This document shows, in pieces, positions 1 through 23,100 of a stretch of 23,129 nt of DNA. The notes beneath the pieces were generated by a model that did not search any database, had not been told where the DNA came from, and worked only from the letters and a program-made list of their open reading frames with translations. The translations under genes were made by a program, and so were the position numbers. This stretch comes from Azolla caroliniana (Eukaryota; Plantae; Polypodiophyta). Each line of letters begins with the position of its first letter. Position 1 is the stretch's first letter. The stretch spans positions 1 through 23,129 of the forward strand of contig JBHGNT010000488.1 of assembly GCA_043228905.1 (NCBI GenBank). The letters run 5' to 3'.

Positions 1-64
1 TGATGAGGATATTTGCGCCTACGATGCCCCCAATAACAATAAAAACAATGGCGACAGTATTCAT
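1..64 (-). CDS. Cys-rich transmembrane micropeptide, copy A (5' part only; runs off the window edge)
   Basis: Reverse complement from ATG at 64 reads MNTVAIVFIVIGGIVGANILI..., nearly identical to copies C and D. It has the same gagaaagATGA start context and the same upstream TATA block. Confidence 0.7.
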   Translation of the reverse strand, partial: MNTVAIVFIVIGGIVGANILI

Positions 65-131
65 CTTTCTCGATAATATATAATGCACCACCAATTCAAA
101 TCCTGCCCTCAAAACCGAATGTATGCATATC

Positions 132-192
132 ATATATATAGTGCTAAATCAATCCAATTAATATAATGGAATTGGCCCTCGAATTAAGATCC
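132..192 (-). promoter_or_regulatory. Conserved core-promoter block of copy A (GGATCTTAATTCGAGGGCCAATTCCATTATATTAATTGGATTGATTTAGCAC-TATATATA)
   Basis: Same block upstream of all four peptide copies, with the TATA tract ~70 nt before the ATG. Confidence 0.65.
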
Positions 193-600
193 TTCCCCCC
201 CCCACCCCATTTCCACCCCTCCCTCACCACTTTGTCTTTGACTTTGATTAATATAATATAATGTTCAAATCCTTGCCCCATTTCCACCCCACCCCCCACC
301 TTGTCTTATACTTTAATTCTCTGTAACTGCTTGCCTCATTACCATCAAATGTTGGCCATGTTCATGTTTTAAATGTAATCAACAAAGTGAGATCGATCTC
401 CCAAAACCAAATGTGGAATGTGACTTTTCCTGTAGGAGTCTAGAGGCCTGCTTTAGAACGGCACCAAAGACAGATATTCTTCATATATTCCCTTTGATGA
501 GATCTAGATACAAGTCATATAAGCTAAGCATGATGATTATTAAACATATGTGCAGGCAAAACAGAAGACTCATAAGTTCATAATTAAAACGCCCATGAAT

Positions 601-618
601 TAAACGCACGTGCGTTTA
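601..618. promoter_or_regulatory. 18-bp perfect palindrome TAAACGCACGTGCGTTTA with G-box (CACGTG) core
   Basis: Read directly; duplicate of 2971-2988. Confidence 0.5.
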
Positions 619-1042
619 TCTTCTTCAGGAGAAAGGTGTTAACCATGGGAAAGGTGTCAAAAACATTCAAAACCGTAACCCCCTAACATATATCTACTTT
701 TAAGAGTCTTTGTTGTGAGTGAGCGAGTGTATGTGCAATTGTAATTATGTAATCGTGTACGAACGTTTGAATGCATTTCATTTTGTAAATGAAATTGTCG
801 CCTCCTTTCTTACAATGTCACCACCTAACATCTGCCCTTTACACTAGTGTTTGGACAAATGTTTGGACATATAAATTGCAAGGCCAAGTGAGAAGGGAAG
901 ACATCAAAGTCAAAGAAATGGTGTGTGGGGGGGGGAGGGAGGAAAGGATCTTAATTCGAGTGTCAAGTGGACGTCAACAAGAGTAACGAGAGGAATCAAC
1001 ATGGAGATAGCCTCAAAAACCAATGTAAAGCTAATAGGATTG

Positions 1043-2354
1043 CAAAAAGGTAGTTTTGGGCCTTATGAGTAAGCAAGGTTATAAATAAAGGCGTGTGCTA
1101 CATTAATAGTTTCAGTTGAACTAAGATTGCGACTCCAACTACAAGGAAGAGAATGAAGGTTTCGAAGAAGAAGGAAGCTTCCACATGGATTTAAAGAATT
1201 TTTTAGTAGTGATGCACATAAATTACTTGTGTCGGAAGTGATCGTATAATGATGCTTTCGCATGGATTTGATGAAGAATTACTTAGTAGTTGTGCACAAG
1301 AATTTCAAGTGGTGAAAATGAGGATATAGTCATGCTTCCACATGCATTTGAGTGTATCACATACCTGCGGTATCTAATAAATAGGTTTAACCTGATCTAC
1401 GAAATGTGAATAATTAAATGATCTGATATTTTGCTTAAGAGAAATTTGTTAAGAAAACATAAGAGATCCTATGGTATAGTAGATAAGAGACATTGGTCTT
1501 TGAAACGAGACATCAGTATAAGTATAAGTTAGGACCATGATCCTAATTTAAGTTAGGAAGATAAAGAATTATTGAGTTGTGATGCATGTTAAGTACAAAG
1601 CATTCACATAGTAATCCCATGTATGCTCTTTAGTTGAACGTACTAAGCAATAGAACATTAGAAATAACGGCTCTAAGAAAGGTCTCTTATATATATATAT
1701 ATAGTGTTGAATTAATTCACAAACCTCATCACATATGCACACTATATATGTGCTCAATCAATTCAATACACATAATCATCACCTGCAGAACTTCCCCAAT
1801 GATGAACTTCCACAAACCCAGATTGACTTTGATTTTCTGTGGGGTCTGTCATCATTTTATCCGACCCATCACAACTATTTTAATTGTGGATTGTGTAAAA
1901 AAAACCCTTTCTCAAAAAATTTCGTGGTTATTATGAAGCCAAGCAGAATCAGATGAGAATTAGAGGAATGTAATGATTTCGTAGGAAATGTGGCAATAAT
2001 TATAGACAAATCTGTGTGGCAATAATTATTATGGAATGTTACAATGGTTTTGTAAGCATGATTGATGACAACTGCATTATGCATTTAAAACCTGCTACAA
2101 TTTACTATCATTAAATGAGAATTTCTAGAAAAGGGCACACATCCAGACTGAAATTAATCAGAGGTTACATACACCTTAACCATGTCTTCACATTATAATT
2201 CAATGAGGGTCTACATACACATGCATATATATCGAGAAAGAGACATTTGTTTCCATGGATTAATTCCTATTCCTTGCTAGCCAAGTACATTGTGCCATGG
2301 TGGCTTAAAAACCCATTTAGTTTGGCCAAGATCAACTATAGATTTTGAGTTACT
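1043..2354 (-). repeat. Duplicated 3' flank of the peptide cassette (copy B version)
   Basis: Inverted similarity to 4986-5877 (e.g. 1043-1100 vs 5821-5877) and direct similarity to 22128-22831, with copy-B-specific extra segments. Confidence 0.85.
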
Positions 2355-2507
2355 TCACACCGGATTTTCCTGATTCGAATCTGAAAGTGCTGCCACCGCA
2401 AAGATACCGGCGCAGCAGAATGTGCAGCACATGATTAGCAGTGCGGCAATGAGATTTAGGCCTACGATTGCCCCAATACAAATAAAAATAATGGCAACAG
2501 TATTCAT
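2355..2507 (-). CDS. Cys-rich transmembrane micropeptide, copy B (50 aa, divergent paralogue): MNTVAIIFICIGAIVGLNLIAALLIMCCTFCCAGIFAVAALSDSNQENPV
   Basis: Open frame kept despite many substitutions and a 3-codon length difference from C/D. MNTVAI, VG.N, CC..CC, NQ..PV and TGA-agtaact are conserved. The true start is taken as the ATG at 2507, not the longer ORF-track start. Confidence 0.8.
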   Translation of the reverse strand: MNTVAIIFICIGAIVGLNLIAALLIMCCTFCCAGIFAVAALSDSNQENPV

Positions 2508-2571
2508 CTTCTCGATATATTGCAGCGATTCAGATCCTCCCCACAAACCGTCGATGTATGCAAATAATATC

Positions 2572-2639
2572 TATATATATACATATAGTGCCGAATCAAT
2601 TCAATTAATATAATGGAATTGACCCTCGAATTAAGATCC
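2572..2639 (-). promoter_or_regulatory. Conserved core-promoter/TATA block of copy B
   Basis: Diverged version of the shared block (GGATCTTAATTCGAGGGTCAATTCCATTATATTAATTGAATTGATT...TATATATA). Confidence 0.6.
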
Positions 2640-2970
2640 TTTCCTACCTCCCCCCCACACACACCATTTCTTTGACTTTGATGTCTTCCCTTCTCACTTG
2701 ACCTTGCAATTTATATGTCCAAACATTTGTCCAAACACTAGTGTAAAGGGCAGATGTTAGGTGGTGACATTGTAAGAAAGGAGGCGACAATTTCATTTAC
2801 AAAATGAGATGCATTCGAACGTTCGTACACGATTACATAATTACAATTGCACATACACTTGCTCACTGACAACAAAGACTCTTTAAAGTAGATATATGTT
2901 AGGGGGTCACGGTTTGGAATGTTTTTGACACCTTTCCCATGGTTAACACCTTTCTCCTGAAGAAGCTTCA

Positions 2971-2988
2971 TAAACGCACGTGCGTTTA
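2971..2988. promoter_or_regulatory. 18-bp perfect palindrome with G-box core, near the middle of the B/C divergent promoter
   Basis: TAAACGCACGTGCGTTTA lies ~460 nt from the copy B ATG and ~430 nt from the copy C ATG. CACGTG is the established plant bZIP/bHLH G-box. Confidence 0.55.
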
Positions 2989-3288
2989 ATTCATGGGCGT
3001 TTTAATTATGAACTTATGAGTCTTCTGTTTTGCCTGCACATATGTTTAATAGTCATCATGCTTAGCTTATATGACTTGTATCTAGATCTCATCAAAGGGA
3101 ATATATGAAGAATATCTATCTTTGGTGCCGTTCTAAACCAGGCCTCTAGACTCCTACAGGAAAAGTCACATTCCACATTTGGTTTTGGGAGATCGATCTC
3201 ACTTTGTTGATTACATTTAAAACATGAACATGGCCAACATTTGATGGTAATGAGGCAAGCAGTTACAGAGAATTAAAGTAATGAGGAA

Positions 3289-3349
3289 GGATCTTAATTC
3301 GAGGGCCAATTCCATTATATTAATTGGATTGATTTAGCACTATATATAT
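3289..3349 (+). promoter_or_regulatory. Conserved core-promoter/TATA block of copy C
   Basis: GGATCTTAATTCGAGGGCCAATTCCATTATATTAATTGGATTGATTTAGCAC followed by TATATATA at 3341-3348, ~70 nt before ATG 3417. Confidence 0.65.
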
Positions 3350-3416
3350 GATATGCATACATTCGGTTTTGAGGGGAGGATTTGAATTGGTGGTGCATTA
3401 TATATTATCGAGAAAG

Positions 3417-3560
3417 ATGAATACTGTCGCCATTGTTTTTATTGTTATTGGGGGCTTCGTAGGTGTAAATATCCTCATCACACTGATAATGCTATGCTGC
3501 GGGTGCTGCTGCTTCAGCATCGCTGCAGCGGTAGAAGCGAATCAGAAAAGTCCGGTGTGA
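3417..3560 (+). CDS. Cys-rich transmembrane micropeptide, copy C (47 aa): MNTVAIVFIVIGGFVGVNILITLIMLCCGCCCFSIAAAVEANQKSPV
   Basis: Intact ORF shared with three paralogues. It has a ~23-residue hydrophobic stretch, a CCGCCC cluster, an upstream TATA and a purine-rich start context. Confidence 0.82.
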   Translation: MNTVAIVFIVIGGFVGVNILITLIMLCCGCCCFSIAAAVEANQKSPV

Positions 3561-3671
3561 AGTAACTTAGAAATCTCCATGTCCGCCCACATGTTATGCT
3601 TGATCTTGGACAAATTAAAATTGTTTTAAGCCAACATGACCAACAAGGAAGAATAATGCTTGTAAACAAAT

Positions 3672-4786
3672 TAGAGAGACCATTGGTGATGATGCTATCA
3701 CGCCAACTCCGAAGCAAATCGACTGTACCACATGACATTATTAGGGCCGAGTTCACGTTACCCCCAATGCTAGTAGAGGCACTTTTTCAACTTGTAGTCT
3801 TTATTGATAGGATACATAGCCAACCACATGATAGAATATCTCATCAAGCCTTTAAGGCCTCTCGATCATTGTATGAGTCCGGCTATACTAGCTCATGGTA
3901 TGGCATGATGGTGACTTGGCTTCTTGCGAATGGTCTAGACATTAATAACCTACCTCCCCTTAGGTACAACCACACGAGTGATAACACCTTAATCTCTCAT
4001 GAGAACCGCAATAAAGTAATACGCCAAGAAATATGGCAAATTTACACTCGGTGTAAATGGATCACCCCACTAGAGCCACTCCCATCTAAAATGTCGTACT
4101 ATAAGAAACACTTCATGCACTTCTCTGAGTTAGGTTTTATCACACGGCCAAAATATCTAGATGTATTCTTACCACATGCACTAAGGGTTGCCATAGGACA
4201 ACTTAGAATATCATCTCACCAACTTGAGATTGAAAATGGCCGTACTAGTGGAGTCCCTAGGGAGGAAAGGATATGTAGGTTATGTCACATAGAGATAGAG
4301 GATGAGTACCACTTTACTTGCAAGTGTCCAACCTATGCCGAGATAAGGGCACAATACCAAGACATACTTGGTCCGTCTCCCACTCTCCCCAAACTATTAG
4401 ATACTCTAGATATAAAGAAATTAGGCAAATACATTCTAGCGCTAAAACAACACAGAGAGAATAAATTACAAAATGTTGACAATAATGCTGCTAATGATCA
4501 CGAACATGTAACAAATGCAGTTTTTCAGGAACCTGAGGAGACAACGAATGCCGACACACTTGCACCACTCGGCCTTTCCATTGATGAGGCAGAAAACCAG
4601 AGAAGAATCAGACGTCCTCGGGTGCCGGGTTTTAAAACAACTCAACGTGATGTGGACGCAATATTGAAAATAAGGGAACGTGAGCTACACCGCCTAGAAG
4701 CCATGGCTAGGGCACTCTCTACATTGGAACCCACATCAAGACCCTTTGACCCCCCACTTCTTTTCGAGAGGCTTGGGTGGAAATAA
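3672..4786 (+). pseudogene. C-terminal part of LINE ORF2 (post-RT region with Cys/His zinc-binding motif); no endonuclease or RT core
   Basis: ORF track 3596..4786. The motif C-x2-C...EDExHF...CP is typical of LINE ORF2 C-termini. The first ~25 codons of the ORF derive from the peptide gene's 3' flank. Confidence 0.75.
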
Positions 4787-4985
4787 AATTAGGCTTAGTG
4801 TATAGTCACTTTCGAGTATACTACATATTGTACACTACTAGAACTCTTTTAGTTTAAGTTCTATTTTTTTTTTACTTAATTTTATTTTTAGTTATGATGA
4901 CTGGATAAATACTCTATTGTTGTAAACCAATTGTCTCATGGGCCAAATTTGGCCTTAGAAGACGTTAATACACCTTTCTTTCTTC
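3672..4985 (+). mobile_element. 5'-truncated non-LTR retrotransposon (LINE; RTEX/L2-Crack-like C-terminus) inserted in the 3' flank of copy C
   Basis: Copy D has ...gtaaacaaat-gtcaga-tctctctctacatat..., whereas copy C has ~1.3 kb between the same flanks. The insert encodes LRISSHQLEIENGR...CRLC..EDEYHF..CP and ends in a palindrome plus a CTTT-type tail. Confidence 0.85.
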
Positions 4986-5877
4986 TTTCTCTACATATAT
5001 ATATATATATATATATGCATTTGTAGCCTCTCATTGAAATTATAATGTGAAGACAAAGGTTATGGTCAAGGTGTATGTATGTAGCCTCTGACTAAAATTC
5101 AGTCTGTGATGTGTCCCATTCACTAGAAATCATTACATACCACATTTACTACAAAATCATTACATTCCTCTAATTCTCATCTGCTTGTGATTATGTGTAT
5201 TGAATTCATTAAGTGTACATATGTGAGGTAACTTGTGACTTAATTGAGCACTATATATAGTGTGCAATATATATATATATATATATAAGAGACCTTCTTT
5301 GTTATAGCCGTTAAATCTAATGTTCGATTGCTCAGTACGTTGAACTAAAGAGCATAATGCTTGTACTTCACGTTCATCACAACTCAATAATTCTTGATCT
5401 TCATATTTCTAATATCTTAAATTAGAATCACGGTCCTAACTCATACTTACTAAATGTTGAGCGCAGAATCTCTGGTTTCAAAGACCAATTTCTTTTATCT
5501 ATTATGCCATAGGAACTCTTAGGTTTCCTTAACTGAATTTCTTCTAAACAAAACATTAGATTAATTTAATTATTCTCATTTCATAGATCAAGGTAAACTT
5601 AAGAATTAGATACCACAATTGAGACATAAGTATGTGATACACTCAAATCCATGTGGACACATGGACTCTATCCTCATTTTTAACACTCGGAAATTTATGT
5701 ACACAACTACTAAATAATTCTTCATCAAATCCATGTGGAGGTTTCCTTCTTCTTCAAAATCTTCATTCTCTTCAATGTAATTAGAGTCTAGATCTTAGTT
5801 CCATCTAAATTATTAATGTAGTACATGCCTTTATTTATAACCGTGCTTACTTCATAAGGTCCAAAACTACCCTTTTG
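4986..5877 (+). repeat. Duplicated 3' flank of the peptide cassette (copy C version, distal to the LINE)
   Basis: 4986-5586 is the reverse complement of ~22128-22720 at high identity, and the segment matches 1043-2240 at lower identity. Confidence 0.88.
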
Positions 5878-6662
5878 TCCCACGAATAAGCTCTTATCCA
5901 TTGAGCTATCCCTTTTTGTTGTTTTGATAATGGTCTTGTCTTGTGTCCTGCTTGTCACATGTTTGCACTATCTTTCAACATTTTATATGTCTTACGGTTG
6001 ACGTATTTCAATTCGCCAACTTCCCACATCACGACATTGTTAGTTGCGAATCTCATTCACTGTAAACTTGAATTTTCATCATTCAATACGAACATTGTAA
6101 ATCGTCAAGTTTTTGGGTCATAGCATCAAATTAGCTCATGCAAGAGGCGTCGTGGATTGATGTGAAAAAATGTTGGGATCGAAGTTTAGAGAGGAACTAC
6201 ACAATTGACAAAAATTGTGTGTCGGGCAACAAGAATTGTATAGTTCCTTTGTGTCAACATTGAGCTTTTACTAATGTGTTATGAACACGCCACAAGTCAA
6301 CATGATTTTGATTATTCCTTCTACGATTATATTTGCGAATGCTCAAGATGGCGATCACGTCATGATCGACAACACAAGGTTGGAGAATGTCACCATTGCC
6401 CCTCCTATATAGATTCCCTCATATCATGGTGAATGGTCCTCACTTTTAAAATAAGACTAGCTCGGTCACTTTTGCTAAGTTGTTTTAAGAATAATGCCCC
6501 TTGTATGAGTACTCGAACTATGTCACCAACCCATGTTAGTGCAATGTTGAGTGTGATGAGTGACGCATATGGTGTGTCACCTTCAATGCCAATTGTTGCT
6601 TCGCCACCCATTGGTTGTGAGAAATGATTGGCCGAGACATGCTTTTTGCCGAAGTTCAAAAT

Positions 6663-6858: not shown

Positions 6859-7089
6859 CCCGGGGGCTTCACTGTCAAAACTTGTATGATAGCACGTGAG
6901 TTCATCAAAAGGGGTTTAAATTGACCACTGAGATACAAAATGTATATATATAAGGGTATAAATAAATCTTTGAAAATATATCTACCTAAGGGTATTATCT
7001 ATTATGCTAGAGAAAAAAATTTCATAAGCCCATGAAATATTAAATATTTCAATGAGATAGTAAAGAATATATTATGCAAACAATGCTCA

Positions 7090-9690
7090 AATTTGGAGTA
7101 GCATATATACATTATACATACATATACATGCGTGCATGCATGTATACCTACATTTAAACATTACATCCGTGAATATGTATATACACACATTACACCCATT
7201 TATACATGCAGAGTGCCTAAACATGAATATATTATATTTGTACAAATATGTATTACCATATGTAAATATGTACATAAATACAATACATACTACATAGTAT
7301 ATAAATACATGCATACATATCTAGATATATATAAATTGTACAAATAAAATACAATACATACTACATAGTATATAAATACATGGATACATATCTAGATATA
7401 TATAAATGCATACATTCTACACACGTATCAGAATAAGCCATATATATTGACATACATATATACATAATACACACATTAAAATTACATATTACATATATAC
7501 ATACACATTCTTACAAACTATTTTATATATTACATATTACACACATATATTATTATACACACAAATCACAATTATATACAAAACATGTTGTGGTGTGCAT
7601 GTGTGCATTTCACAATATATACATACCAAACACAAAAAGATTACATACATAAATAAATTACATATTATATATACACATACACATACACGTAAATATAGAA
7701 GATTACATATTATATTTAATACAAATCTACATACATACAAACATGTTACATATATTACACACACACACACACATACACATAAATAAATTACATACTACAT
7801 ATCATGTAATCCATACATATTATATGATATACAAATTTACATACACATACATACAAACAAGTTACATATATGTATTACACACATACCCATAAATAAATTA
7901 CATGCTACATATCATATAATCCATACATATTATATGATATACAAATTTACATACACGTACATACATACATAGATACATACATATTCCACATATCACCATA
8001 TCTATAGGTTATACGAAACCATACAAAATACAATACTTAGTACATATATATACATATATACATTCATACACACACATTGGATATATGTATACTTACACAT
8101 ACATCGGATATATACATGTATATTATATGCATATTACAAACATACATCCATATATGAGTTATACACATACTAAACATTAAAATACACCGAAAATATAGAT
8201 ACATAAATACATTAGATATATACACATACATACATTCATATATTCATTCATACATTGCTACACGTAAATACGTACATATGCCTACAATGTCACACATATA
8301 AATTTTATAAACACACATACATACATACATTACATGCAAGCATACACATACATACATTACATGTATGCATACACATACATATATTACATGCATGCATACA
8401 CATACATACATTCCATACATATGTACATATATATCACCACATACACACACACATAGTCATACACACTACAATAATACATATATACATACACATCCATACA
8501 CATTGAATCATGTACATTGACATATGCATATATGCATAAACATATATACATACATTACATATGTTACATGTACATACATATTCCACATATCACCATATAT
8601 ATAGGTCATACGGGGTCATACAAACTACATTCCTTACATATATGCATACATATGTATACGCATACATTGGATATATGCATACATATTATGTGAATATTGC
8701 TAACATACATCTAGATATGACCCATACACATACTAAACACTCAAATACCCTGAAAATATACATACATATATACACATACGCACATGGACATACATATATT
8801 CATTCATACATTGCTACACGTATATATGTACATATGCCTACAATGATACACGTATAAATTTTACAAACATACATCCATACACATACACACATATATACAT
8901 TACATACATAAATACATACATACATACATATTCCACATATCACCATATATATAGGTCATATGGGGTCATACAAACTACAATACATACATAATATATACAT
9001 AGACATACATACATATTACAAACACACATCCACACACACATGTATGCATACACATACAAACGTACATACATTACTTATTACATATATACTCATATGTACA
9101 TGCATACATGTACATACATATATTCATTCAACACATAATGGATCCAATATACACATCTAAACTTACACACATGCCATATATACAATACATATAATACATG
9201 CAATACAATACATATATGTACATACATACACACATCCCATACATACAATGCATATGTATATACAATAGATACATCATACAATTAATACATACAATATGTA
9301 CATACATACACACTTACATATGTACACATATCACATACATATATATACATGCAATACAATACGTATGCATGTATATATAGAATAGACACACACATATATA
9401 CACATGTATGTACGCATACACATATGTATATAGAACATACACTCACATAACACACACATACATATGCATAGGCCATACGAATAATACATACACATTACAA
9501 TACATCATATGCACATGTACAGAACATACACACACATAGCACATACATACATATGCACATGTCACACAGACAACACATGGAGTACAATACATACATATGC
9601 ACATGTATAGAGCATAACACACACACACACACACACAAATATACATATCCACATGCATAAACATGCACATGTATAGAAGGTACATACACA
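7090..9690. repeat. ~2.6-kb low-complexity TACA/CATA/TA-rich tract with internal block duplications
   Basis: Degenerate (TACA)n/(CA)n/(TA)n. Duplicated blocks include ~7277-7337 vs ~7347-7408 and ~7970-8330 vs ~8570-8870. Confidence 0.9.
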
Positions 9691-9809
9691 CAATAGAACA
9701 CTCTTTTTAAAATGCCTCTCAAAGGGATGCTAATTGTTTTAAAAAAATGGGGGAAGAAAGGGAGGGAGATTATATATGTGATGTGTTTTAGTAAAAATTG
9801 GGGGGGAAA

Positions 9810-9811
<2 letters not shown>

Positions 9812-10335: not shown

Positions 10336-10420
10336 GTAATAAAAGGTATTCAAGTGGTGGCTCGGATTCACAAAATTGGAGGAAGTAAACAAAATGAAAA
10401 CTTTACAAACTTTTGTTTAT

Positions 10421-12939: not shown

Positions 12940-13280
12940 CATGTATAATACACATTCACGCATGCACATATATAGAACACATGCACACAATACACAAACT
13001 ACATACATATACACACACACATATATCATTACACTTACATGCACACACATGCACATATAACACATAGATACATACACACATGCCATATACATAAAATATA
13101 TACAACACATGCAATACAATACAATACATGCATATATAAACATGGAATACAATACACTACATATGTACATTCACATGCAATACAATACATGTCAACATAC
13201 ATACACATAACCCATATATAAAATATATACAACACATGCAATACAATATAGTATATACATACACACTTATATTGAACATA
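12940..13280. repeat. TACA/CATA low-complexity tract
   Basis: Same composition as 7090-9690, with shared words such as acacatgccatata and atgcaatacaatac. Confidence 0.85.
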
Positions 13281-13481: not shown

Positions 13482-13715
13482 TTACTGACAGAAGTACTGA
13501 CACATACTTCAATGCTCATAAATGAGCTCTACACTAACTCCCAAAATATATTCCTACGCGGAATATCTTTCCAAAGGCCTCACGGTTTACGCACCGCTAT
13601 GGCTTCTCGTTGCGCACCTGTTTACGCACCGGTCTGGCCTAACCGATTGATCCCAACCGATCCGGTTCTCGGCTTGCATAGCCGATCCAGCCAATGTTGA
13701 GGTTGTATATCAACA
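13482..13715 (-). mobile_element. Proximal (U3-side) part of the 3' LTR of the minus-strand copia
   Basis: Minus strand begins TGTTG at 13715, immediately after the polypurine tract CTTGAGGGGGAG (13716-13727). Confidence 0.75.
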
Positions 13716-16145
13716 CTCCCCCTCAAGCTCAACTTGAGGTTCCATCCGCTCTTCTGGATCTACGCTCCGGTTCCTTCTAGCTTCATGCCTTGCTCGCGCT
13801 CCTCGACCTGTTCGATTCTGCGCGCCTCGACCCTTCCGGTTGGCTTGCATGCTAGTGCGGCCCTTCTCAATTCCGTTCTTGTCGCGGTGTTGGCCCTTCT
13901 TCTACTGCCTTCTTTTCCGCTTGGCCCTCAGTTGATTCGGCGTATCCGAATCAAGCATCTGAACCGACTCGGCTTCCTCAGATTGGTTTTCGCTTTCGTC
14001 CGAGTTGGCTATCTCCAACTCGTCTTCAGTCTTCCCGCCCTTGATGGCTTCGTCTTCCCCACGCTTGGTTGGCTTCGGCTCTTTCTTTCGACTGCTCCCC
14101 TTATATCCACTTTCAGAATCTTTCGGGGATCCACCCTCGGCTTCTTCAGCCGATCCGGAATCGAATTCGTCATCCAACTCGGCGTTGCGGTCTTCTAGAA
14201 CTTTTCTCCCTCTTCCGTGGTCATTTGGGACATCTCTCCCCCACAAGTTCGGCATGTCGAGGTGGCACAACCCAAGCACACCCGAGAATTGCTGCAACTT
14301 GTCCAGACCAAGACGCTTGGTGAAGATGTCGGCGGTCTGCCGATTCGTTGGAACATACTGAAATTCGACTTCACCGGAGAGGACACGCTCACGGACGAAA
14401 TGGTAGTGCACCTCAATGTGCTTAGTTCGGGCATGGAAGACGGGGTTCTTTGCTAGCTGGATGCTGTTGAGGTTGTCGTAGTAGTTTGTCATTGGATCAG
14501 ATACCTTCACCTGCAAATCCTTAAGTAGTTGCTTCAACCATATGGCTTCGCATGTTGTGACAACCACTCCTCTATACTCAACTTCGGTGCTCGACAACGC
14601 AACTGTCAGCTGCTTCTTGCTACTCGAAAGGATCCCGACACTCCCAAGAGAGAACGCAAAACCGGACGTGGATCAGTGATCGACGACGTTGTCGGCCCAG
14701 TCGGCATTGGTGTAGTCGACCAATTGCGGGGTTGTACCGGTCCGATATAGATGCCCCTGGTCCTTAGTGCCACTTATGTACCGTAGTACGCGTTGCGCAC
14801 ACTAAAGGTGCTCCTTGGTAGGTCACCCCATGAACTGACTAATCACCCCGACCGGGTAGCTGAGATCTGGTCGGGTGATGGTCAAGTATATAAGGCTTCC
14901 AACTATCTGTCGGAACCTCGTCGGGTCGCATACCTTTCTAGAATCGGGGCGAAGCTTGACGGTTCTATCCAAAGGAGTCGAGATAGACTTATAGTCGGCC
15001 ATCCAGAATTTGAAGAGCATACTTAGCACATAATGCGGTTGGCTAATCAGTATGCCTTCGGGGGTGAGGATCACTTCGATCCCAAGGAAGTAATGAAGGT
15101 CCCCTAGATCCTTCATGTCGAATGATGCCGCAAGCTAGAGCTTCATGCGGTCAATCGCACCTAGGTCGGCGCCGGTGATGACCAAGTCATCAATATAAAG
15201 TAAAATGCTAACCGACCCGAGTCGACCTTTCCGGATGAATAGTGAGGAGTCCGATTTTGATGTTGCAAAGCCCATCCGACGCAATCGTTGCCTGATCTTC
15301 ACGTTCCAGGCACACGAGGCTTGCTTTAGTCCGTAAAGGGACTTCTTTGACCGGCACACTGCTGAGGTTTTCGTTCCGGAGTGAAATCCGTGGGGCTATA
15401 CCATGTACACCTGTTCCTCAAGCTCACCTTGCAGGAATGCATTCTTTACATCCATCTGATGTAAGTGCCACCCCTTCGCCGCAACTACTGCAAGCAAAAC
15501 GCGGACGGTTGTCATCTTCACGACCGGTGCAAACGTCTCATCGTAGTCGATGTCGTGTTGCTGTGCGTAGCGTTTTGCTACTAACTGGGCTTTGTATCGG
15601 TTGACCGAGTTGTCAGTGTTGTACTTGACCTTGTACACCCACCTACATCCGATCGGCTTCACACCTTTCAGTGCGTCAACCAGGTCGCAGGTTTCATTTT
15701 CTGCCAATGCACGCATCTCTTCCTCCATTGCGGCACGCCAATTCATGTCCTTCGCCGCTTCTGCGTAGCTCTCTAGCTCACCCACTTTCGTTACACGGGT
15801 CATGTACGCATAGTGATGCACCATGTACTCATTGTATCTGAACCGCACAACAGGGTTCTTCTGGCGGGTAGATCGGTGTAATTGCTCATTAGCCGATGTT
15901 GAGGCTTTCTTGGCCGACGTGGACTTCGCTCTCGAAGACCCGTCATCACTTCCCTCGGAGTCGGACTTGCGTCGATCCGACTTGTTCCTATCTATCCTGT
16001 AATCCGACACCTTCTTCTCGTTCCTATCAGGGAATGCACAATCGAGTCTCCACTACTTGCCGGCTCTTCTTCGGACTGGTCAATCCGACTCAGTCATCCA
16101 TTCGGTCCACTTAACCGAAACGAGAGTGGACTCTCTTCGAGGGTC
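13716..16145 (-). mobile_element. Ty1/copia LTR retrotransposon, internal region, 5'-truncated (no gag or integrase in view)
   Basis: RT and RNase H remnants plus PPT. The GC-rich sequence ends abruptly at ~16145. Confidence 0.92.
13902..16010 (-). pseudogene. Copia pol remnant (RT + RNase H), broken by stops and frameshifts
   Basis: Motifs [77 protein letters not shown] and ADIFTK are spread over four ORFs. Confidence 0.92.
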
Positions 16146-16149
16146 TCGA

Positions 16150-16493
16150 TTTAAAGATTTATAGGTTTTTAGTTAACTTTTCTTTTAGCTTAATAGTATA
16201 TTAATTTAATGGCTTAATTAATGGTTTTTTATTGATTTTATAAATTTAACTTAAATGTTAATTTAATTTAATGTATTTTACTTTATTTAGATGTTTAAAT
16301 AGTTTGATTTAGATGGTTCGGTTCGGTTTCAACTTTTCCCTAAACGGTTTGGTTTTAAATGGTTTTGTTAAAAAAATTTATTAAATGGTTCAGTTTGGTT
16401 TCAACTTCGTTAAACGGTTTGGTTTGGTTTTTGTTTTATATAAACGGTTCGATTTCTTTGCCTTGAAACTGAACCGAACCATGCCAATTGCTA
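16150..16493. mobile_element. AT-rich DNA-transposon/MITE end fragment with AAACGGTT/GGTTC subterminal repeats
   Basis: Repeated aaacggtttggtt/ggttcggtt motifs, ending ...aaccgaaccatgccaattgcta (TAG on the minus strand), which resembles plant hAT ends. No partner end or TSD found. Confidence 0.5.
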
Positions 16494-16801
16494 CACACTA
16501 GAGATACAGTATGGGTAGAGTGGAACTTTTAGCCCAACTAGAGGTCTATGGTAGCGCTTCAACTTACTTTTGTTGATAAACCCCACACGTTAATGTCATT
16601 GAGTCTATGGTGATGATGGTATTAATGTATCATCCTCTCGTCATAGTTAGAGTTTCTTTTTTATGTCTTTGCTCGAAAACTTTTAGGACAATGCTTCCCT
16701 CCTCTAGATCTTTGTCTTTAACCTTATTGTCATGCCATATACATTTCGATTCATTTTTTTCTATAAATGTTAGGGTAGGTTATAGGTGATCATCGTCCCA
16801 T

Positions 16802-17577
16802 TTGTTAATAAGTATGAATATGAATGAAAATGATGATGTTGATACATTTGTTAAAAACTGGAGACTTCGACTTGATGATGTGATCCTTTCAGGACTTAGT
16901 TTGCCAAGTTCTGTTCAATCCGCCCTCTTGTTAGCCACCCTACCCCCATCATGGCCACCATTTATAAGTACAAAATCTACATCAGCCAACATTAGTGTCC
17001 CAACATTAGTGGCATCAATCTCACAAGAAAACATACTTCGTAGGGCAATAAATCAACCCTCCTCATCTCACACTGCACTTTATATCAAACATCCAAATTA
17101 CAATAAAAAACCTTACAATAAACCTAGATCAACATACCAACCTAATAACTCCAAATTTTATTCACAGACTTCTAAATTTAATGATTCAAGGAATCATAAC
17201 AAATCTAGGTTCCTTAGATCCTTTTGTACAAATTGTCAAAGGAGTGGACATGAAACAAAAGATTGTTATAGGAATCCTAACAATGGGAAAAGAACATATA
17301 AAGAAGACCAATCTTACAATGCATCACGTGATGACTACGATCAAAATAATGACATATGTCATGGTGACCAAAATTCCGATGAGGATAATGAAGACTCTTT
17401 CATTGCCTTCATGGCCCTCACTTCATTTAACAACTCTCCCACTTCAACGTGGATTCTTGATAAAGGTGCCACATGTCACCTCACCTCAAGAGTTGAATGG
17501 CTCAAAGACTATAAGGTCTTAGAGCATCCTTTCCCGGTTAGATTTGGGAACAATGGGGTTGAATATGCCCTTGGACA
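16802..17577 (+). pseudogene. Copia gag (C-terminal half, CCHC knuckle) and start of aspartic protease
   Basis: LLLATLPPSW, zinc knuckle CTNCQRSGHETKDC and protease motif WILDKGATCH. Confidence 0.9.
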
Positions 17578-18382
17578 TGTTGGGAGATAGTTCCCTCCGG
17601 ATGGGAAGGGAGAAGAACAATGCTGATAAGCAAACTCGGCCGAGGCCGAAACCGGATGAGGAGTACCCGGCTACGGAGAGCCGAATGGTGCAAACCCGGT
17701 GAGAACCGGATGAGGATTACGCGGCTACGGAGAGCCGGATGGTGCAGACCCGGTGAGAACCGGAGGAGGAGTACCCGGCTACGGAGAGCCGGATGGTGTA
17801 GACCCGGTGAGAACTGGATGAGGAGTACCTGGCTACGGAGAGCCGGATGGTGCAGACCCGATGAGAACCGGATGAGGATTACCCGGCTACGGAGAGCCGG
17901 ATGGTGCAGACCCGGTTAGAAGCGCTCTTCGGATGAAGAGACATATTTGTAAATATGTTTCTGAGAGTCCATCGTGGCTATATTTGTAAATAGCCGAAAA
18001 GTCATATTAGTATAAATATGACTTAGGGCAAACTTTTGTTGTGGTTGTCATTCTTGTTTTGCATGAGATTAGAGCGCGTAACAGTGTACAGAGAGAGAGA
18101 GAGAGAAAGAGGTCGCTGCCTCTGTTGTAACCGCCGCCTGTGGCGAAGATCGTGAGCGCGAGGTCGTTGCCTCCGTGAGCTCACTGTTGTAATTATCGTG
18201 ACATAGTGATAGTTAGCAGTCAGTGGACTGCCGTGGTTTTTCCCTCTCAAGGTTTTCCACGTTAAACATCCCGTGTACTCTTCTCTCCATTGGGTCGTGC
18301 ATTTCATTTCTCATTTTCTGTGCATAATTCTAAACTCGGTTGTGGCCGAGCGTTGCGTATAGGGGATGCGTAATTCCCGTCA
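17578..18382. mobile_element. Solo LTR (805 bp) nested in the copia protease region
   Basis: TG...CA ends (TGTTGGGA / TCCCGTCA) and 5-bp TSD GGACA at 17573-17577 and 18383-18387. Removing it restores the frame ALGH|GTAHLELSDG...KNLISV. Confidence 0.93.
17650..17919. repeat. Tandem array, 5 x 54 bp, CCGG-rich, inside the solo LTR
   Basis: Unit AACCGGATGAGGAGTACCCGGCTACGGAGAGCCGGATGGTGCAGACCCGGTGAG starts at 17650, 17704, 17758, 17812 and 17866. Confidence 0.95.
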
Positions 18383-21300
18383 GGACATGGGACTGCCCAT
18401 CTTGAACTTTCTGATGGGAACTTCATTGAAATCAATGAAGTTTACTATATACCTAACATAGCAAAAAACTTGATATCTGTCAATAAACTCACAAATGATA
18501 ATACATCCGTCGAGTTTTATCACAAATATTGTATCATTCGTCATAAGACACCCTGTGGACGAGGCTATGTCGTTAACTGTCCAAGACAAGGATGTCTTTA
18601 CCTCTTAGGTCACTCCGTGGTACCTACCGAAGAAGCACACCACATGGATGATTCAAACACATCCAACTATATGACCTTATTATGGCACTATCGATTAGGC
18701 CACTTAAACCATCAAACAATGGTTCACATGGCCCGACAACATATAGCAGTTGGTTTTACTCTTCCTAGTAAATCGAAACTATCCCTTTGCGAAGGGTGTA
18801 TATTTGGAAAACTCTCTAACTCGCCATTTCCATCCCATCCTACAACGACCACTAAACCCCTCCAACTAGTGCACACAGATATATGTGGTCCTTTGTCTAC
18901 CCCATCCCTATCTGGAAATGTATATTTCCTAACATTTATCGATGACTTTACTCGTTTCACGATGGTCACATTTCTCAAGACAAAATGTAGTGATCAAGTC
19001 CTTGAGAAATTCAAAGCCTATCATAAACTTGCAACAAATAAAAAAGAATTACCCCTTAAAGTACTCCAATCATATAATGGTGGAGAATTCAAGTCCCAAC
19101 ACTTCCAAACATATTGCCAAAATCATGGGATTCAACAATGGTTTACCATTCCATATACACCCCAACACAATTCAAGGGTTGAACGACGAAACCGGTTGTA
19201 TATGGATGCCACTCGTTGCATGGTCTCCGTTGCAAACTTTCCCCGAACATATTGGGAAGAGGTTGTTTCGACCGCTTGTTATATATTCAATAGAACATAT
19301 AGTCGATCAATTAGGACAACTCCATTTTCCTTGTGGTTTGGAAAAAATCCATATTATATACATCGAAGAATCTTTGGATGTCCATCATATGCACTCGTAC
19401 CGCTAGAAACTCGATCAAAATTAGATAATCACGCAGTTCGCACAATATTTGTTGGGTATGGCGAACCTCATGGCTACAAGGGTTATCGATTATACGACCC
19501 AAAATACAAAAGATTTATATTTAGCCAACGAGTGATATTTGATGAAGACAAATTGATATCTAATCCTCATTCACATCATGGCTATGAAAAGATACAAGAC
19601 GCGACTACCATGTCTAACACTGAATCCAATAAAGAAGTAATATCATCACCTACTAATTCTTGGCGGGCTCCACAAATGTCCTTGGAAATTCAACAAGTCA
19701 CAATTAACTCTCCTCCATTAATGCCCTCATCTCTAGAGGTCCTCCCACAAGTCTCAGGTTCAACCAATGACTCCAACTTATTGCCTTTAATAACCAAACA
19801 ATCCCAACAAACTGATGTACATACTCCAATTTTAAACAGTAACCCCAACCAAAGTAAAAAGAGCCTTAATAATCACCATAGCACTCATAAGGAAAAACTT
19901 TTAGATGGAACACAACTGACTCATATTGATTATTCATGCTCCCATCCTATCAAAAATCTCCTTATTCCACTACGACGATCCTCACGTCTTAATGGCAAGT
20001 TGAAAACCATTGGTCACAATGATGCATATGTAATTAAAATAGGATGTAGAAATACTTCATATTCCACTAATAATCAACATGTAGAACATACAAATAGTTC
20101 TGACATTGCGAAATCACCTAGTTCACTTAGCTCTACATCCACTCCAAAGAAAGTTCATATTATTCAAGATCTTTATAATCACACAAAAAAAATAGACGCT
20201 CTTGTTGCGGACCATCAATTTGAACTTGAGTTTGCATTTTCGGCTCTTGGTTCCCCCTCAACCACATCAGACATTTCTGATGATCCCTTAACTATCAATG
20301 AGGCATTGCAAAGCCCAGATCATAATGAATGGCAAGCTGCCATGGCAAAAGAACTTGAATCTCTTGAGGCCAACAAAACGTGGACCCTAGTCCCACTCCC
20401 AATGGGACGCTCACCTATTTCATGCAAATGGGTGTTGAAGAAAAAACTAAACCCTGATGGTACTGTTGCACGTTACAAAGCTCAACTTGTCGCTCGTGGT
20501 TTTTCTCAAGTTGAAGGACTTGACTATTCTGAGACATTCTCACCCGTTCTTCGCATGGCATCTTTTCGGCTCCTAATGGCTCTGGCCACCATTCTTGACC
20601 CTGAGGTACATCATTTGGATTTACAAACGGCATTTCTACATGGTGATTTACCCGAAGAAATCTACATGTCACAACCTCCTGGGTTTGAGTCACACTCTCA
20701 ACCAAACTATGTGTGTTGGTTACATCGGTCACTTTATGGACTCAAACAATCTCCTAGGTTATGGTTTCAAAAATTTAACAATTTTATGCTCTCACATGGC
20801 TATTCTAGATTGTTATCAGAACCAAATATATACATTAGACATAATCATACATCTTATCGGTTGTTAGTGGTAGCACTATATGTGGATGACATTCCTATAG
20901 TTGGAACACCATCTGAAATTACTCAAGCAAAGCTAGAACTTTCCAAAGCATTTTCAATAACAGATTTAGGTCCCCTATCTTATTTTCTAGGCATGCAAGT
21001 TACGCGTAATCGTAGTATGGGCACCTTGATCATTCATCAAAATAAATTCATTAATGAAATTTCGAAATCCTTCGGAATGTTAAACATTAAACCTTACCCT
21101 ACTCCCTTATCACTAACATGTAACTTAAGCATATCCGATGGTCCAACCACAAAAAGAGATATTAATTTTATGCAACAATTTCCCTTTAAATAATTAATAG
21201 GAAAACTTCGATATTTAGTCACAGGAACTCCTCCTGACCTTTGTTTTGCAATTAATTATCTATCACGCTTTATGCATAACACCAGCCTTATGCATTGGAA

Positions 21301-21870
21301 ATCAGTTGAATGAATTATGTGATATCTAAAACACACATCTAACTATGGATTAACATATAAACGATCCCAATCCGAAAGACCAATCAAATCACTTGTTGGT
21401 TGGTCTGATTCGGATTGGGGGGGGGGGACGTTGATTCTCGAAGATCTACTGTTGGTTTTTCTTTTATAATGGCAAGAGCAGCAGTGACGTGGCAATCGAA
21501 AAAACAAGAATCTGTGACACTCTCATCTACTGAAGCTTAATTCGTAGGAGTGGCATTGGCTGCTAAAGAAGGATTATGGTTGCAAACAGTGTTAAAAGAA
21601 CTCCAACTATGTGAACCACACCAATTGAAAATCTTCTGCGACAATATATCATGTATCTACTTAACGAAGAATCCAAAGCACTCGGAGAAAACAAAACATG
21701 TGGATTTAAAATATCACTTTATACGAGAGTTGGCCGAAGAAAACAAGCTTACCTTAGAGTTTACATCGACAAATCATATGTGGGCTGATTTTCTAACAAA
21801 GGCTCTACCTCCGGACAAATTTGAAGCTTGTTGTGAAAATTTAGGATTACAACGATTCACAACTAATTAG
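18383..21870 (+). pseudogene. Copia pol (protease end, integrase, RT, RNase H), disabled
   Basis: WHYRLGH..CEGC (HHCC), VHTDICGP, SYNGGEF, YKAQLVARGFSQ, LYGLKQS, LYVDDI, KHVDLKYHFIRE and ADFLTK. There is a stop at 21191-21193, further stops downstream and a poly-G run near 21417-21428. Confidence 0.93.
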
Positions 21871-21882
21871 TTTATGGGGGGC

Positions 21883-22127
21883 TGTTGTAATAAACTAATT
21901 AGTGTAGAATAAATAAATAGGAAACTAAATAATAAAAACGTAACCTTATGATATGAAAAGGTGCACCCCAAAAATAGGGTGCACCTATAACCACCACATT
22001 TGCTCTTTGTGTGGTCGGTTGGTTGTAAGAGAGAGACAGAAACTATCATTCAATTAAGTTTTCTTCTTCTCTTTCTCTCTCTTCCTCTCTCCCTCTCTCT
22101 CCATTCCATATTCCCTTATTTTCCACA
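21883..22127 (+). mobile_element. 3' LTR (~245 bp) of the plus-strand copia
   Basis: Starts TGTTG after the PPT and ends ...CCACA exactly where similarity to the peptide-cassette flank (ctatgaaatgag...) begins. Confidence 0.8.
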
Positions 22128-22831
22128 CTATGAAATGAGAATAATTAAATTAATCTAATATTTTGTTTCGAAGAAATTCAGTTAAGAAAACCTAAGAGTT
22201 CCTATGGCATAATAGATAAAAGAAATTGGTCTTTGAAACCAGAGATTTTGCGCTCAACATTTAGTAAGTATGAGTTAGGACCGTGATTCTAATTTAAGAT
22301 ATTAGAAATATGAAGATCAAGAATCATTGAGTTGTGATGAACGTGAAGTACAAGCATTATGCTCTTTAGTTCAATGTACTGAGCAATCGAACATTAGATT
22401 TAACGGCACTAACAAAGAAGGTCTCTTATATATATATATTGCACACTATATATAGTGCTCAATCAATTCACAAGTTACCTCACATATGCACACATAATCA
22501 ATTCAATACACATAATCACAAGCAGATGAGAATTAGGAGGAATGAAATGATTTTGTAGGAAATGTGGTATGTAATGATTTCTAGTGAAGGGGACACATCA
22601 CAGACTGAATTTTAGTCAGAGACTACATACATACACCTTGACCATAACCTTTGTCTTCACATTATAATTTCAATCAGAAGCTACAAATGCATATATATAT
22701 ATATATATATGTAGAGAGAGATCTGACATTTGTTTACAAGCCTTATTATTCCTTGTTGGTCATGTTGGCTTAAAACAATTTTAATTTGTCCAAGATCAAG
22801 CATAACATGTGGGCGGACATGGTAAGTTACT
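22128..22831 (-). repeat. Duplicated 3' flank of the peptide cassette (copy D version, without the LINE)
   Basis: Reverse complement matches 3561-3671 joined to 4986-5586. Confidence 0.9.
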
Positions 22832-22975
22832 TCACACCGGACTATCCTGATTCCCTTCTATCGCTGCAGCGATGCCGAAGCAGCAGCACCCGCAGCACGC
22901 TACTACCAGTCCGATGAGGCAATTTGCGCCTACGATGCCCCCAATAACAATAAAAACAATGGCGACAGTATTCAT
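22832..22975 (-). CDS. Cys-rich transmembrane micropeptide, copy D (47 aa): MNTVAIVFIVIGGIVGANCLIGLVVACCGCCCFGIAAAIEGNQDSPV
   Basis: Intact ORF collinear with copy C (36/47 aa identical), with the same start context and TATA block. Confidence 0.82.
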   Translation of the reverse strand: MNTVAIVFIVIGGIVGANCLIGLVVACCGCCCFGIAAAIEGNQDSPV

Positions 22976-23042
22976 CTTTCTCGATAATATATAATGCACC
23001 ACCAATTCAAATCCTCCCGTCAAAACCTAATGTATGCATAGC

Positions 23043-23100
23043 ATATATATAGTGCTAAATCAATCCATAATATAATGGAATTGACCCTCGAATTAAGATC
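23043..23100 (-). promoter_or_regulatory. Conserved core-promoter/TATA block of copy D
   Basis: Same block as in copies A-C, followed by a poly-C run at the window end. Confidence 0.62.

What the first reader, a model, noticed from the sequence alone, without database searches (positions are those of the whole stretch)
1..23100. Clustered family of unrecognised 47-50 aa Cys-rich membrane micropeptides (four copies)
Seen: four intronless ORFs (1-64 partial, 2355-2507, 3417-3560, 22832-22975) share MNTVAI.FI.IG..VG.N. The three complete copies also share a ~23-aa hydrophobic helix, a CC-x-x-CC cluster, an Ala-rich stretch and a fixed NQ-x-x-PV-stop end. Frame, start context and an upstream TATA block are kept even in the divergent copy B. 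Known: juxtamembrane Cys clusters are typical S-acylation or metal-binding sites; CYSTM proteins are comparable but carry the Cys-rich membrane segment at the C-terminus. Inference: this is a lineage-specific, expanding family of membrane micropeptides small enough to be missed by annotation. I do not recognise the family.
Basis: partly seen in the sequence, partly recalled or inferred. Interest (0 to 1): 0.85.

Follow-up and report, generated by a model that had tools for sequence, protein, structure and literature searches.

The report
Unnamed fern membrane micropeptide family
A plant, likely a fern, carries repeated copies of a tiny gene of 47-50 codons that matches no family in the libraries searched and likely encodes a membrane-spanning peptide, predicted to be fat-anchored and to regulate a partner membrane protein, with some copies changing faster than the DNA around them.

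Summary
Confirmed. Four intronless ORFs (A 1-64, B 2355-2507 and D 22832-22975 on the minus strand; C 3417-3560 on plus) lie in duplicated units of about 2.5 kb with a shared TATA promoter. Seven more copies occur in five metagenome contigs of related plants. All 11 frames are open as far as they are held. Lengths differ only by whole codons (41-50 aa), and none of 36 inferred changes in residues 4-26 brings in a charge or stop. Contigs from a run guessed to be RNA match B exactly and show a fifth variant starting 43-44 nt before the ATG. No Pfam, PHROGs, PDB, Rfam, viral or prokaryote match passed threshold. CYSTM and TAXIMIN membership tests fail. Corrections: the invariant core is G16-x-N18, CC27-28 and N-[QE]-x-[SN]-P-V, not CC-x-x-CC (6 of 10). 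Family-wide dN/dS is about 1. The C and D ORFs differ four times more than their flanks. Best model: a single-pass, S-acylated regulatory micropeptide (inferred). Translation, topology, partner and lineage range are untested.

The parts
1..64 (-). Copy A, first 21 codons (cut by the window start)
131..191 (-). Copy A promoter: 16-nt conserved block (176-191) and TATA block (starts at 140)
309..966 (-). Upstream region of A: 97% identical inverted copy of 2619-3280; ends in a stub of B's promoter block (about 944-966) with no ORF behind it
962..2354 (-). Downstream part of the B unit, homologous to the C and D downstream regions (73-84%) and to the spacer between tandem copies in L002 and L004; no ORF with start and stop shared by all units
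2039..2439 (-). Stretch matched with 0 differences by a 401-nt contig of run X1 (RNA is a guess): 3' half of ORF B plus 316 nt downstream
   Evidence: table 8
2355..2507 (-). Copy B ORF, 50 aa
2578..2638 (-). Copy B promoter: 16-nt block (2623-2638) and TATA block (starts at 2587)
3290..3350 (+). Copy C promoter: 16-nt block (3290-3305) and TATA block (starts at 3341); B and C are head to head
3417..3560 (+). Copy C ORF, 47 aa
3672..4983 (+). 5'-truncated LINE-like fragment inserted 111 nt after C's stop; absent at the same site in D; not part of the gene family
   Evidence: LINE identity recalled from the C-terminal cysteine motif, supported by PF00078 on relative P0034
4984..6195 (+). Downstream part of the C unit, resumed after the LINE fragment
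22128..22831 (-). Downstream part of the D unit, cut at 22128 by a copia LTR
22832..22975 (-). Copy D ORF, 47 aa
23042..23100 (-). Copy D promoter: 16-nt block (23085-23100) and TATA block (starts at 23051)

Best explanation
These are four copies of a tandemly duplicated plant gene of 47-50 codons that likely encodes a single-pass membrane micropeptide, predicted to be S-acylated at an invariant Cys-Cys just after the helix and to act as an in-membrane regulator of a partner membrane protein. Shown: the ORFs, shared promoter, duplicated units, open frames in 11 of 11 copies, selection against charged residues and frameshifts, and faster change of the C and D ORFs than of their flanks. Inferred: residues 4-26 cross the membrane with the 3-residue uncharged N-terminus outside; C27-C28 sit at the cytosolic boundary and are acylated by a DHHC enzyme; the hydrophobic stretch of variable length after CC lies along the membrane surface; small-xxx-G16 and the invariant mid-helix N18 form the contact with a partner helix; the invariant N-[QE]-x-[SN]-P-V end is a cytosolic binding or export signal. 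The rapid amino-acid turnover in the C/D subfamily most likely reflects tuning to a changing partner at a biotic interface (defence or microbial association). About 0.9 that the genes make a hydrophobic peptide, about 0.4 for this mechanism.
For: Open frame in 11 of 11 nhmmer hits in the window and five loci. Five length classes (41, 43, 47, 49, 50 aa), all in frame, while 47 of 295 pairwise flank gaps are multiples of 3 (pairs not independent). 36 parsimony changes at positions 4-26: 0 charged or stop states (expected 14%, p=0.005), 0 with N/Q/H/P added (24%, p=5e-5). Neutral simulation: 0 of 3000 replicates kept the first 33 residues free of charge and stops in all copies, under each of two base compositions. 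Residues 1-28 have no indel; all length change lies after C28, and in L003 only six residues separate CC from an Arg, so a second full helix is not required. AlphaFold2 gives one helix, residues 3-44, mean pLDDT 77.4, 87-91 over residues 1-20. Contigs of X1 match B with 0 differences over 401 nt, and a variant contig starts 43-44 nt before the ATG, 32-33 nt after the TATA start. C against D: 18 of 144 ORF sites differ against 26 of 822 flank sites (p=1.6e-5; p=0.002 without the 5 CpG-type changes), about 15.5 of the 18 non-synonymous. Cys next to membrane-spanning regions are typical acylation sites (PMC5364179 section 16); yeast CYSTM proteins and Arabidopsis ROT4 are S-acylated small membrane-associated regulators (abstracts of PMC10840359 and PMC10897394).
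Against: No evidence of translation. X1 is only guessed to be RNA and X2's kind is unknown; both are contigs, which cannot show strand, start or level; no listed contig matches the ORF of A, C or D exactly. Family-wide dN/dS does not differ from 1 (MG lnL -670.61 free against -670.79 fixed), so the usual purifying signal is absent; it appears only among B-type copies (pairwise 0.3-0.66; MG 2dlnL 6.4, GY 2.3). No conserved helical face: variability moment p=0.62, volume moment p=0.46, so the contact surface is not supported by that test. The C-terminal tail has net charge -2 to +1, not the positive charge usual on the cytosolic side (rule recalled). Faster-than-flank change is seen in 3 of 6 pairs (C/D p=1.6e-5, L001/L003 p=0.03, L003/L004a p=2e-4; the last two share L003) and not in A/C (0.14), L002a/L004a (1.0) or L002b/L004b (0.69); N against S within C/D is not significant (p=0.24). 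Gene conversion, or chimeric low-coverage assembly in the loci, could mimic it. P0059 matches only the first 24 or so residues and may be a broken copy. No partner is identified.
Confidence: 0.4

Rival explanations
1. Secreted-peptide precursor: the hydrophobic N-terminus is a signal peptide or anchor, cut after the invariant G16 or after the Ala-rich stretch, and the conserved N-[QE]-x-[SN]-P-V end (or a TAXIMIN-like hydrophobic mature peptide) is the signal.
For: The last six residues are the most conserved polar part and are kept through all indels. G16 is invariant and small residues precede the polar tail, as at signal-peptidase sites (rule recalled). TAXIMIN shows that a very hydrophobic Cys-rich plant peptide can use the secretory route (PMC4526920 passages).
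Against: No basic n-region; the uncharged run is 33-43 residues, far longer than a usual h-region. The segment before the tail varies widely (L002b and L004b have VVVPKLSDL, with no Ala-x-Ala). Cys number varies from 3 to 6, so there is no fixed disulfide frame. No signal-peptide predictor was available.
Confidence: 0.2
2. Self-assembling proteolipid: the peptide oligomerises through small-xxx-G16 and N18 into a pore (viroporin- or phospholamban-like), or acts as a structural hydrophobic or surfactant component of a lipid surface such as cuticle, spore wall or lipid body.
For: GRAVY 1.6-1.9, one invariant polar residue in mid-helix followed by a Cys cluster, an anatomy that resembles coronavirus E and surfactant protein C (recalled, not tested). 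Free exchange among hydrophobic residues with dN/dS near 1 fits a role set by bulk properties.
Against: No sequence or fold match to any viral or solved protein. A bulk role does not explain the invariant C-terminal motif or an ORF that changes faster than its flanks.
Confidence: 0.22
3. CYSTM-like metal or redox shield: the Cys cluster chelates metals or buffers redox stress at the plasma membrane.
For: CC-x-x-CC or CCGCCC in all three complete window copies; CDT1-type CYSTM peptides confer Cd and Cu tolerance (PMC2804304).
Against: The second CC is lost in 4 of 10 members; no Pfam CYSTM hit at E up to 1 in any of 10 members; the module is not C-terminal and there is no Pro/Gln head.
Confidence: 0.1
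4. Non-coding or passenger sequence: the ORF is a by-product of a duplicated repeat, mobile element or structured RNA.
For: The whole unit of about 2.5 kb is duplicated, the region is rich in retroelements, and family-wide dN/dS is about 1.
Against: Frame, hydrophobicity, start and stop are kept in all copies while flanks gather frame-breaking gaps. No terminal inverted repeats mark the unit ends in the three regions scanned, and no other ORF is shared across units. No Rfam match; folding z-scores -0.57 and +0.97.
Confidence: 0.06

Closest known systems
CYSTM / CYSPD / PCM family (PCC1, CDT1, yeast Cpp1-3)
   Same: Small, Cys-clustered, membrane-associated; clustered paralogs; S-acylation shown in the yeast members (PMC10840359 abstract); plant members tied to defence (PMC8049917 abstract).
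   Different: CYSTM has the Cys module at the extreme C-terminus behind a polar Pro/Gln head (PMC2804304). Here the hydrophobic helix starts at residue 4, the Cys follow it and a polar tail ends the peptide. No HMM match.
TAXIMIN (TAX1/TAX2)
   Same: Very hydrophobic, Cys-rich plant peptide that reaches the plasma membrane.
   Different: 73-75 aa, a predicted signal peptide plus a 46-aa mature part, six Cys and three Pro conserved, one intron in Arabidopsis, conserved across land plants (PMC4526920 passages). Here 41-50 aa, 3-6 Cys with two invariant, one invariant Pro, no intron. No direct sequence comparison was run.
ROT4/DEVIL (RTFL) peptides
   Same: Non-secreted small plant peptide whose S-acylation brings it to the plasma membrane, where it changes the partners of a kinase (PMC10897394 abstract): the functional model for the best explanation.
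   Different: ROT4 depends on acylation for membrane association; its soluble, basic RTF domain (recalled) has no likeness to a 33-43-residue uncharged run. No Pfam hit.
Animal single-pass micropeptide regulators and viroporins (phospholamban/regulins, SPAR, coronavirus E)
   Same: One helix, juxtamembrane Cys, short tail (recalled). Pfam SPAR and TMEM52 score weakly (E 0.15 and 0.046-0.076).
   Different: Scores of 12-14 bits are far under the cut-offs of 26-27 and reflect composition; no homology is claimed.

Membership tests
CYSTM | [quoted passage not shown] | tested here: not met
   Cys at 27-32 are followed by 11-22 residues ending in a polar motif; definition from PMC2804304
CYSTM | N-terminal polar Pro/Gln-rich head before the module | tested here: not met
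   Only three residues precede the hydrophobic run
CYSTM | 5-6 Cys with 3-4 consecutive, then an acidic residue | tested here: inconclusive
   C, D and L005 have three consecutive Cys; B has two pairs; 3 of 10 members keep a single pair and L003 a pair plus one; no acidic residue directly after the cluster
CYSTM | Match to the Pfam family model | tested here: not met
   0 of 10 members hit a CYSTM model at E up to 1
TAXIMIN | 73-75 aa with a 46-aa mature peptide | tested here: not met
   Whole ORFs are 41-50 aa; definition from PMC4526920
TAXIMIN | Six conserved Cys and three conserved Pro | tested here: not met
   Two invariant Cys and one invariant Pro
TAXIMIN | Functional N-terminal signal peptide | not testable with these tools
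   No signal-peptide predictor or experiment available
PMP3/RCI2 and RTFL/DVL small plant peptides | Match to the Pfam family models | tested here: not met
   No such family among the 10 listed at E up to 1 for 10 members; that Pfam holds these models is recalled
S-acylated single-pass micropeptide (functional class) | One hydrophobic helix of 19 residues or more | tested here: met
   Best 19-residue hydropathy 2.6-2.9 in 9 of 9 complete copies; helix 3-44 in the model
S-acylated single-pass micropeptide (functional class) | Cys at the helix boundary, on the cytosolic side and acylated | not testable with these tools
   CC27-28 invariant in 10 of 10; side of the membrane and modification not testable
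S-acylated single-pass micropeptide (functional class) | Translated in vivo | not testable with these tools
   Only contigs of runs of guessed or unknown kind; selection on the protein is indirect support
Transposable-element component | TE protein domain, or terminal repeats bounding the unit | tested here: not met
   No TE domain in the peptides; no terminal repeats at unit ends in three regions; head-to-tail spacing 2663 and 2693 nt in L002 and L004. Genome-wide copy number could not be checked

The most novel reading that the evidence does not exclude
A fern-restricted family of S-acylated single-pass micropeptides, one subfamily of which is under diversifying selection because it acts at a membrane facing a microbe (pathogen or resident symbiont), as a host-made pore or as a regulator of a receptor or transporter: a membrane-embedded counterpart of the secreted Cys-rich peptides with which seed plants control microbes.
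Probability: 0.12. Interest if true: 0.85.

Novelty: new variant of a known kind. Interest (0 to 1): 0.52.

Why it matters
Plant membrane micropeptides are known from a handful of families, nearly all studied in seed plants. This one has no match in the libraries searched, is short enough to fall below usual annotation cut-offs, and comes with natural variants (loss of the second CC, in-frame deletions, a fast-changing subfamily) that already dissect the peptide. If it regulates a membrane partner at a biotic interface it gives a direct handle on fern-microbe interactions. If not, it is still a clean case of a small-protein family kept by selection on hydrophobicity and frame with dN/dS near 1, which standard coding tests would miss.

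Tried and rejected
Own genome: none held, so copy number outside the window is unknown. Run search: no holder on record as RNA; 2 holders listed, both under half of the words. X1 and X2 have no cover on 1-2000, 2601-3200, 5201-6000 and 18400-22481, and X3 on nothing; lack of cover is not used as evidence. Homodimer prediction: no verdict, score 0.03 against a mark of 0.32, alignment not used. Foldseek against PDB: 0 matches at E up to 10; PDB sequences: 0. ESM Atlas: no answer for P0001 and P0005; for the mis-extended P0006 no feature hit and 10 structural rows, all under the bar. Pfam: best E 0.0048 (OppC_N) and 0.0097 (holin-X), under cut-off or composition-driven. PHROGs: best E 0.017. Viral contigs 0 of 6 and prokaryote genomes 0 of 197 pattern hits confirmed. 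Conserved helix face: not supported. Structured RNA or miRNA precursor: rejected. A second conserved ORF in the unit: none among 82 ATG ORFs of 25 aa or more. Longer N-terminal forms (P0006, P0007): rejected as gene-caller products; the extra ATGs lie upstream of the likely start of transcription or need TGA read-through. CpG decay as the cause of fast C/D change: explains 5 of 18 differences only. Earlier scan notes: 5 look-ups, nothing. Literature: 7 searches, none describing the family.
Full report
1. Observation. All four have a TATA block at -76 or -80, a 16-nt block at -125 to -131 and no ATG between TATA+25 and the start. The start-context pattern gives 3 matches against a shuffle mean of 0.04. 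B, C and D share 25 invariant columns of 50.

2. Anatomy of the locus. The duplicated unit is much larger than the ORF. Self-comparison shows 309-966 as a 97% inverted copy of 2619-3280, 1-196 as a 98% inverted copy of 3285-3480, C and D units 91-95% alike, and B's downstream region 73-84% like those of C and D. B and C are head to head; A follows B head to tail at 2443 nt; D lies 19 kb away beyond two copia fragments, an RRM pseudogene and low-complexity arrays. C's 3' flank is interrupted at 3672-4983 by a LINE-like fragment absent from D, and D's unit is cut at 22128 by a copia LTR. No terminal repeats mark the unit ends in the three regions scanned, and none of 82 other ATG ORFs of 25 aa or more has a start and stop shared by all units.

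3. Lineage. A search with 210 aa of the LINE fragment gave 45 hits; 2 of 45 carry a name, both from the fern Adiantum nelumboides (best 51% identity, E 1.7e-53); the other 43 are unnamed ENA proteins. The source is therefore likely a fern (inference from one retroelement). No whole genome is held.

4. Relatives. Profile searches found 1 protein among 9 candidates, 3 in the full library of 1.84 billion representatives and 3 among 732 candidates; all are unnamed ENA records. P0006 and P0007 are the same gene type with a false N-terminal extension, and P0007 also reads through the stop. P0059 matches only about the first 24 residues and may be a broken or chimeric copy; its DNA was not seen. A metagenome scan confirmed 5 of 586 pattern hits. 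These loci are about 65-90% like the window in ORF and flanks; L002 and L004 each hold a second copy head to tail at 2663 and 2693 nt. nhmmer over the window and the five loci finds 11 copies and no degenerate one; 9 are complete and 2 are cut by a sequence end. Viral contigs (0 of 6) and prokaryote genomes (0 of 197) gave nothing. Absence from protein collections does not show lineage restriction, because plant annotations often omit ORFs this short (recalled) and no plant genome could be searched.

5. Is it coding? By dN/dS alone, no: over ten copies the codon model with free omega is no better than omega fixed at 1 (MG -670.61 against -670.79; GY -664.85 against -665.00, reading the fixed GY parameter as omega; the estimates themselves were not printed). 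B-type copies lean purifying (pairwise 0.3-0.66; 2dlnL 6.4 MG, 2.3 GY), C, D and L005 lean above 1 (1.2-2.75; 2.1 MG, 4.0 GY). By other tests, yes. Complete ORFs fall in five length classes (41, 43, 47, 49, 50 aa) between a shared ATG and a shared PV-stop, whereas 47 of 295 pairwise flank gaps are multiples of 3 (in nucleotide alignments 44 of 77 ORF gaps are, and the rest sum to whole codons; pairs are not independent). Of 36 parsimony changes at positions 4-26, none gives a charged residue or stop (14% expected, p=0.005) and none N, Q, H or P (24% with these, p=5e-5); one state outside A, V, I, L, M, F, C, G occurs (states counted once, so approximate). In neutral simulation on the DNA tree 344 and 576 of 3000 replicates had no internal stop, 14 and 4 of 3000 kept start, frame and stop, and 0 of 3000 kept the first 33 residues free of charge and stops. 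The members were partly found by protein similarity, which favours intact motifs; the second copies in L002 and L004 and the window copies were also found at DNA level. No Rfam match and no unusual RNA folding.

6. Expression. The run search listed 3 runs, none on record as RNA. In X1 (RNA is a guess) a 401-nt contig matches 2039-2439 with 0 differences: the 3' half of B and 316 nt beyond its stop. X1 and X2 (two studies, two organism codes) both hold a variant that differs from C at 13 of 221 sites and from D at 10 sites plus a 7-nt indel outside the ORF. All 10 differences from D fall in the ORF; read by hand they change eight codons, all to other amino acids, none to a stop. It also differs from A, so it is a fifth copy or allele. 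Its X1 contig reaches 43-44 nt upstream of the ATG, 32-33 nt after the TATA start, which fits a plant transcription start (spacing recalled), though contigs cannot show a start. This is compatible with transcription of B and of the variant; it does not prove it, and no listed contig matches the ORF of A, C or D exactly.

7. What is conserved. In ten aligned members the invariant columns are G16, N18, L23, C27, C28, N42, P46, V47; M1, N2, T3, F8 and I11 are invariant in the nine that reach them. Position 12 is G or A, giving small-xxx-G16. Residues 1-28 have no indel. CC-x-x-CC survives in 6 of 10. The run without charge is 33-43 residues, GRAVY 1.6-1.9, net charge -2 to +1. AlphaFold2 on the ten-row alignment gives one helix (3-44), mean pLDDT 77.4, pTM 0.40, with no PDB match by fold or sequence. 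A test for a conserved helical face was negative (p=0.62 and 0.46).

8. Fast change in the ORF. C and D differ at 18 of 144 ORF sites but 26 of 822 flank sites (p=1.6e-5); without the 5 CpG-type changes p=0.002. Non-synonymous sites exceed the flank rate (15 of 108, p=1.7e-6), synonymous sites do not (3 of 33, p=0.09), but N against S inside the ORF is not significant (p=0.24). Of six pairs tested, three reach p<0.05 (two of them share L003, a low-coverage contig) and three do not. Ten of the 18 C/D differences lie in codons 19-26. Diversifying selection is the simplest reading; gene conversion (A is a C/D mosaic) is not excluded.

9. Mechanism. Committed model (0.4): a single-pass peptide, N-terminus out, S-acylated at C27-C28, that regulates a partner membrane protein through its helix and presents N-[QE]-x-[SN]-P-V to the cytosol. 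Shown: gene structure, duplication, selection on frame and hydrophobicity, fast change in C/D. Inferred: translation, topology, acylation, partner, biotic role. Rivals: oligomeric pore or structural proteolipid (0.22), secreted-peptide precursor (0.2), CYSTM-like metal shield (0.1), non-coding passenger (0.06).

10. Comparison with known families. It may work like CYSTM/CYSPD or ROT4 (acylated small membrane regulators) but is not a member of CYSTM: the module is not C-terminal, there is no Pro/Gln head, and no HMM hit. It is not TAXIMIN by length, Cys/Pro pattern or gene structure; a direct alignment with TAXIMIN was not run because no tool gave the sequence. Weak Pfam hits (TMEM52, SPAR, holin-X, OppC_N) are far under cut-off where a cut-off was shown. 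Papers seen: PMC2804304 (parts 1 and 2 of 3, whole main text), PMC4526920 (passages), PMC5364179 (passages and section 16), PMC11012589 (passages), PMC10840359, PMC10897394 and PMC8049917 (abstract and outline); all others as search listings only; no supplements were opened. Not found in print in these searches: four family motifs anywhere in the text, 0 papers; 'Azolla filiculoides, small peptide, transmembrane, lineage-specific, tandem' and 'Azolla, Nostoc, leaf cavity, small protein, transcriptome', where the genus is a recalled guess and untested; 'fern, microprotein, single transmembrane, S-acylation, species-specific'; 'fern genome, orphan gene, small open reading frame, membrane peptide, positive selection'. 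Gene lists in supplements of fern genome papers could hold these genes under model numbers and were not seen.

11. Verdict. A real, apparently undescribed micropeptide gene family in a likely fern: a new variant of a known kind (small Cys-bearing membrane peptides), with good evidence for selection on the protein and weak evidence on function. Interest 0.52; 0.85 if the fast-evolving subfamily proves to act at a microbial interface (probability about 0.12).

Noticed in passing
window 3672-4983: 5'-truncated LINE-like fragment in sense orientation in C's 3' flank, open for about 370 codons; the empty site in D has about 8-10 nt that are missing in C and no clear target-site duplication. Its best named relative is a fern protein.
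   Followed up: partly
window 16790-22127: Copia element (gag, integrase, RT by Pfam) with a 3' LTR at 21883-22127 that cuts the D unit; no matching 5' LTR in the self-comparison; stops and frameshifts in RT/RNase H.
   Followed up: partly
window 17591-18373: G+C-richer insert that splits the copia gag-pol frame and holds a 54-nt tandem repeat (17650-17924); possibly a solo LTR of another element.
   Followed up: no
window 13700-16150: Second, broken copia RT/RNase H fragment on the minus strand (Pfam RVT_2).
   Followed up: no
window 9915-10420: RRM followed by a Gly-rich tail, with an in-frame stop and no clear start: likely a processed pseudogene of a glycine-rich RNA-binding protein, between two GA microsatellites (RRM_1 E 1.7e-12).
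   Followed up: no
window 7100-9700 and 12950-13280: Long degenerate TACA/CATA low-complexity arrays with strong strand skew.
   Followed up: no
window 1688-1776 (and 5243-5290, 22424-22463): A second promoter-like TATA block about 800 nt downstream of the ORF in each unit, 81-88% like B's own promoter, with no conserved ORF behind it; also three 77-80-nt repeats at 1171-1349.
   Followed up: partly
window 3373-3537 / 22852-23018, run X1: The 200-nt contig of the fifth variant closes on itself: a joint from inside the ORF back to the 5' end with 3-5 extra letters. Library or assembly artefact, or a circular form; not resolved.
   Followed up: no
window 2-64 against C and D: Copy A shares codons 14-17 with D and codons 19-21 and its promoter with C, a mosaic that hints at gene conversion between copies.
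   Followed up: partly
L003 about 430-455 and L004 about 170-195: Short run of TTAGGG repeats upstream of the gene.
   Followed up: no
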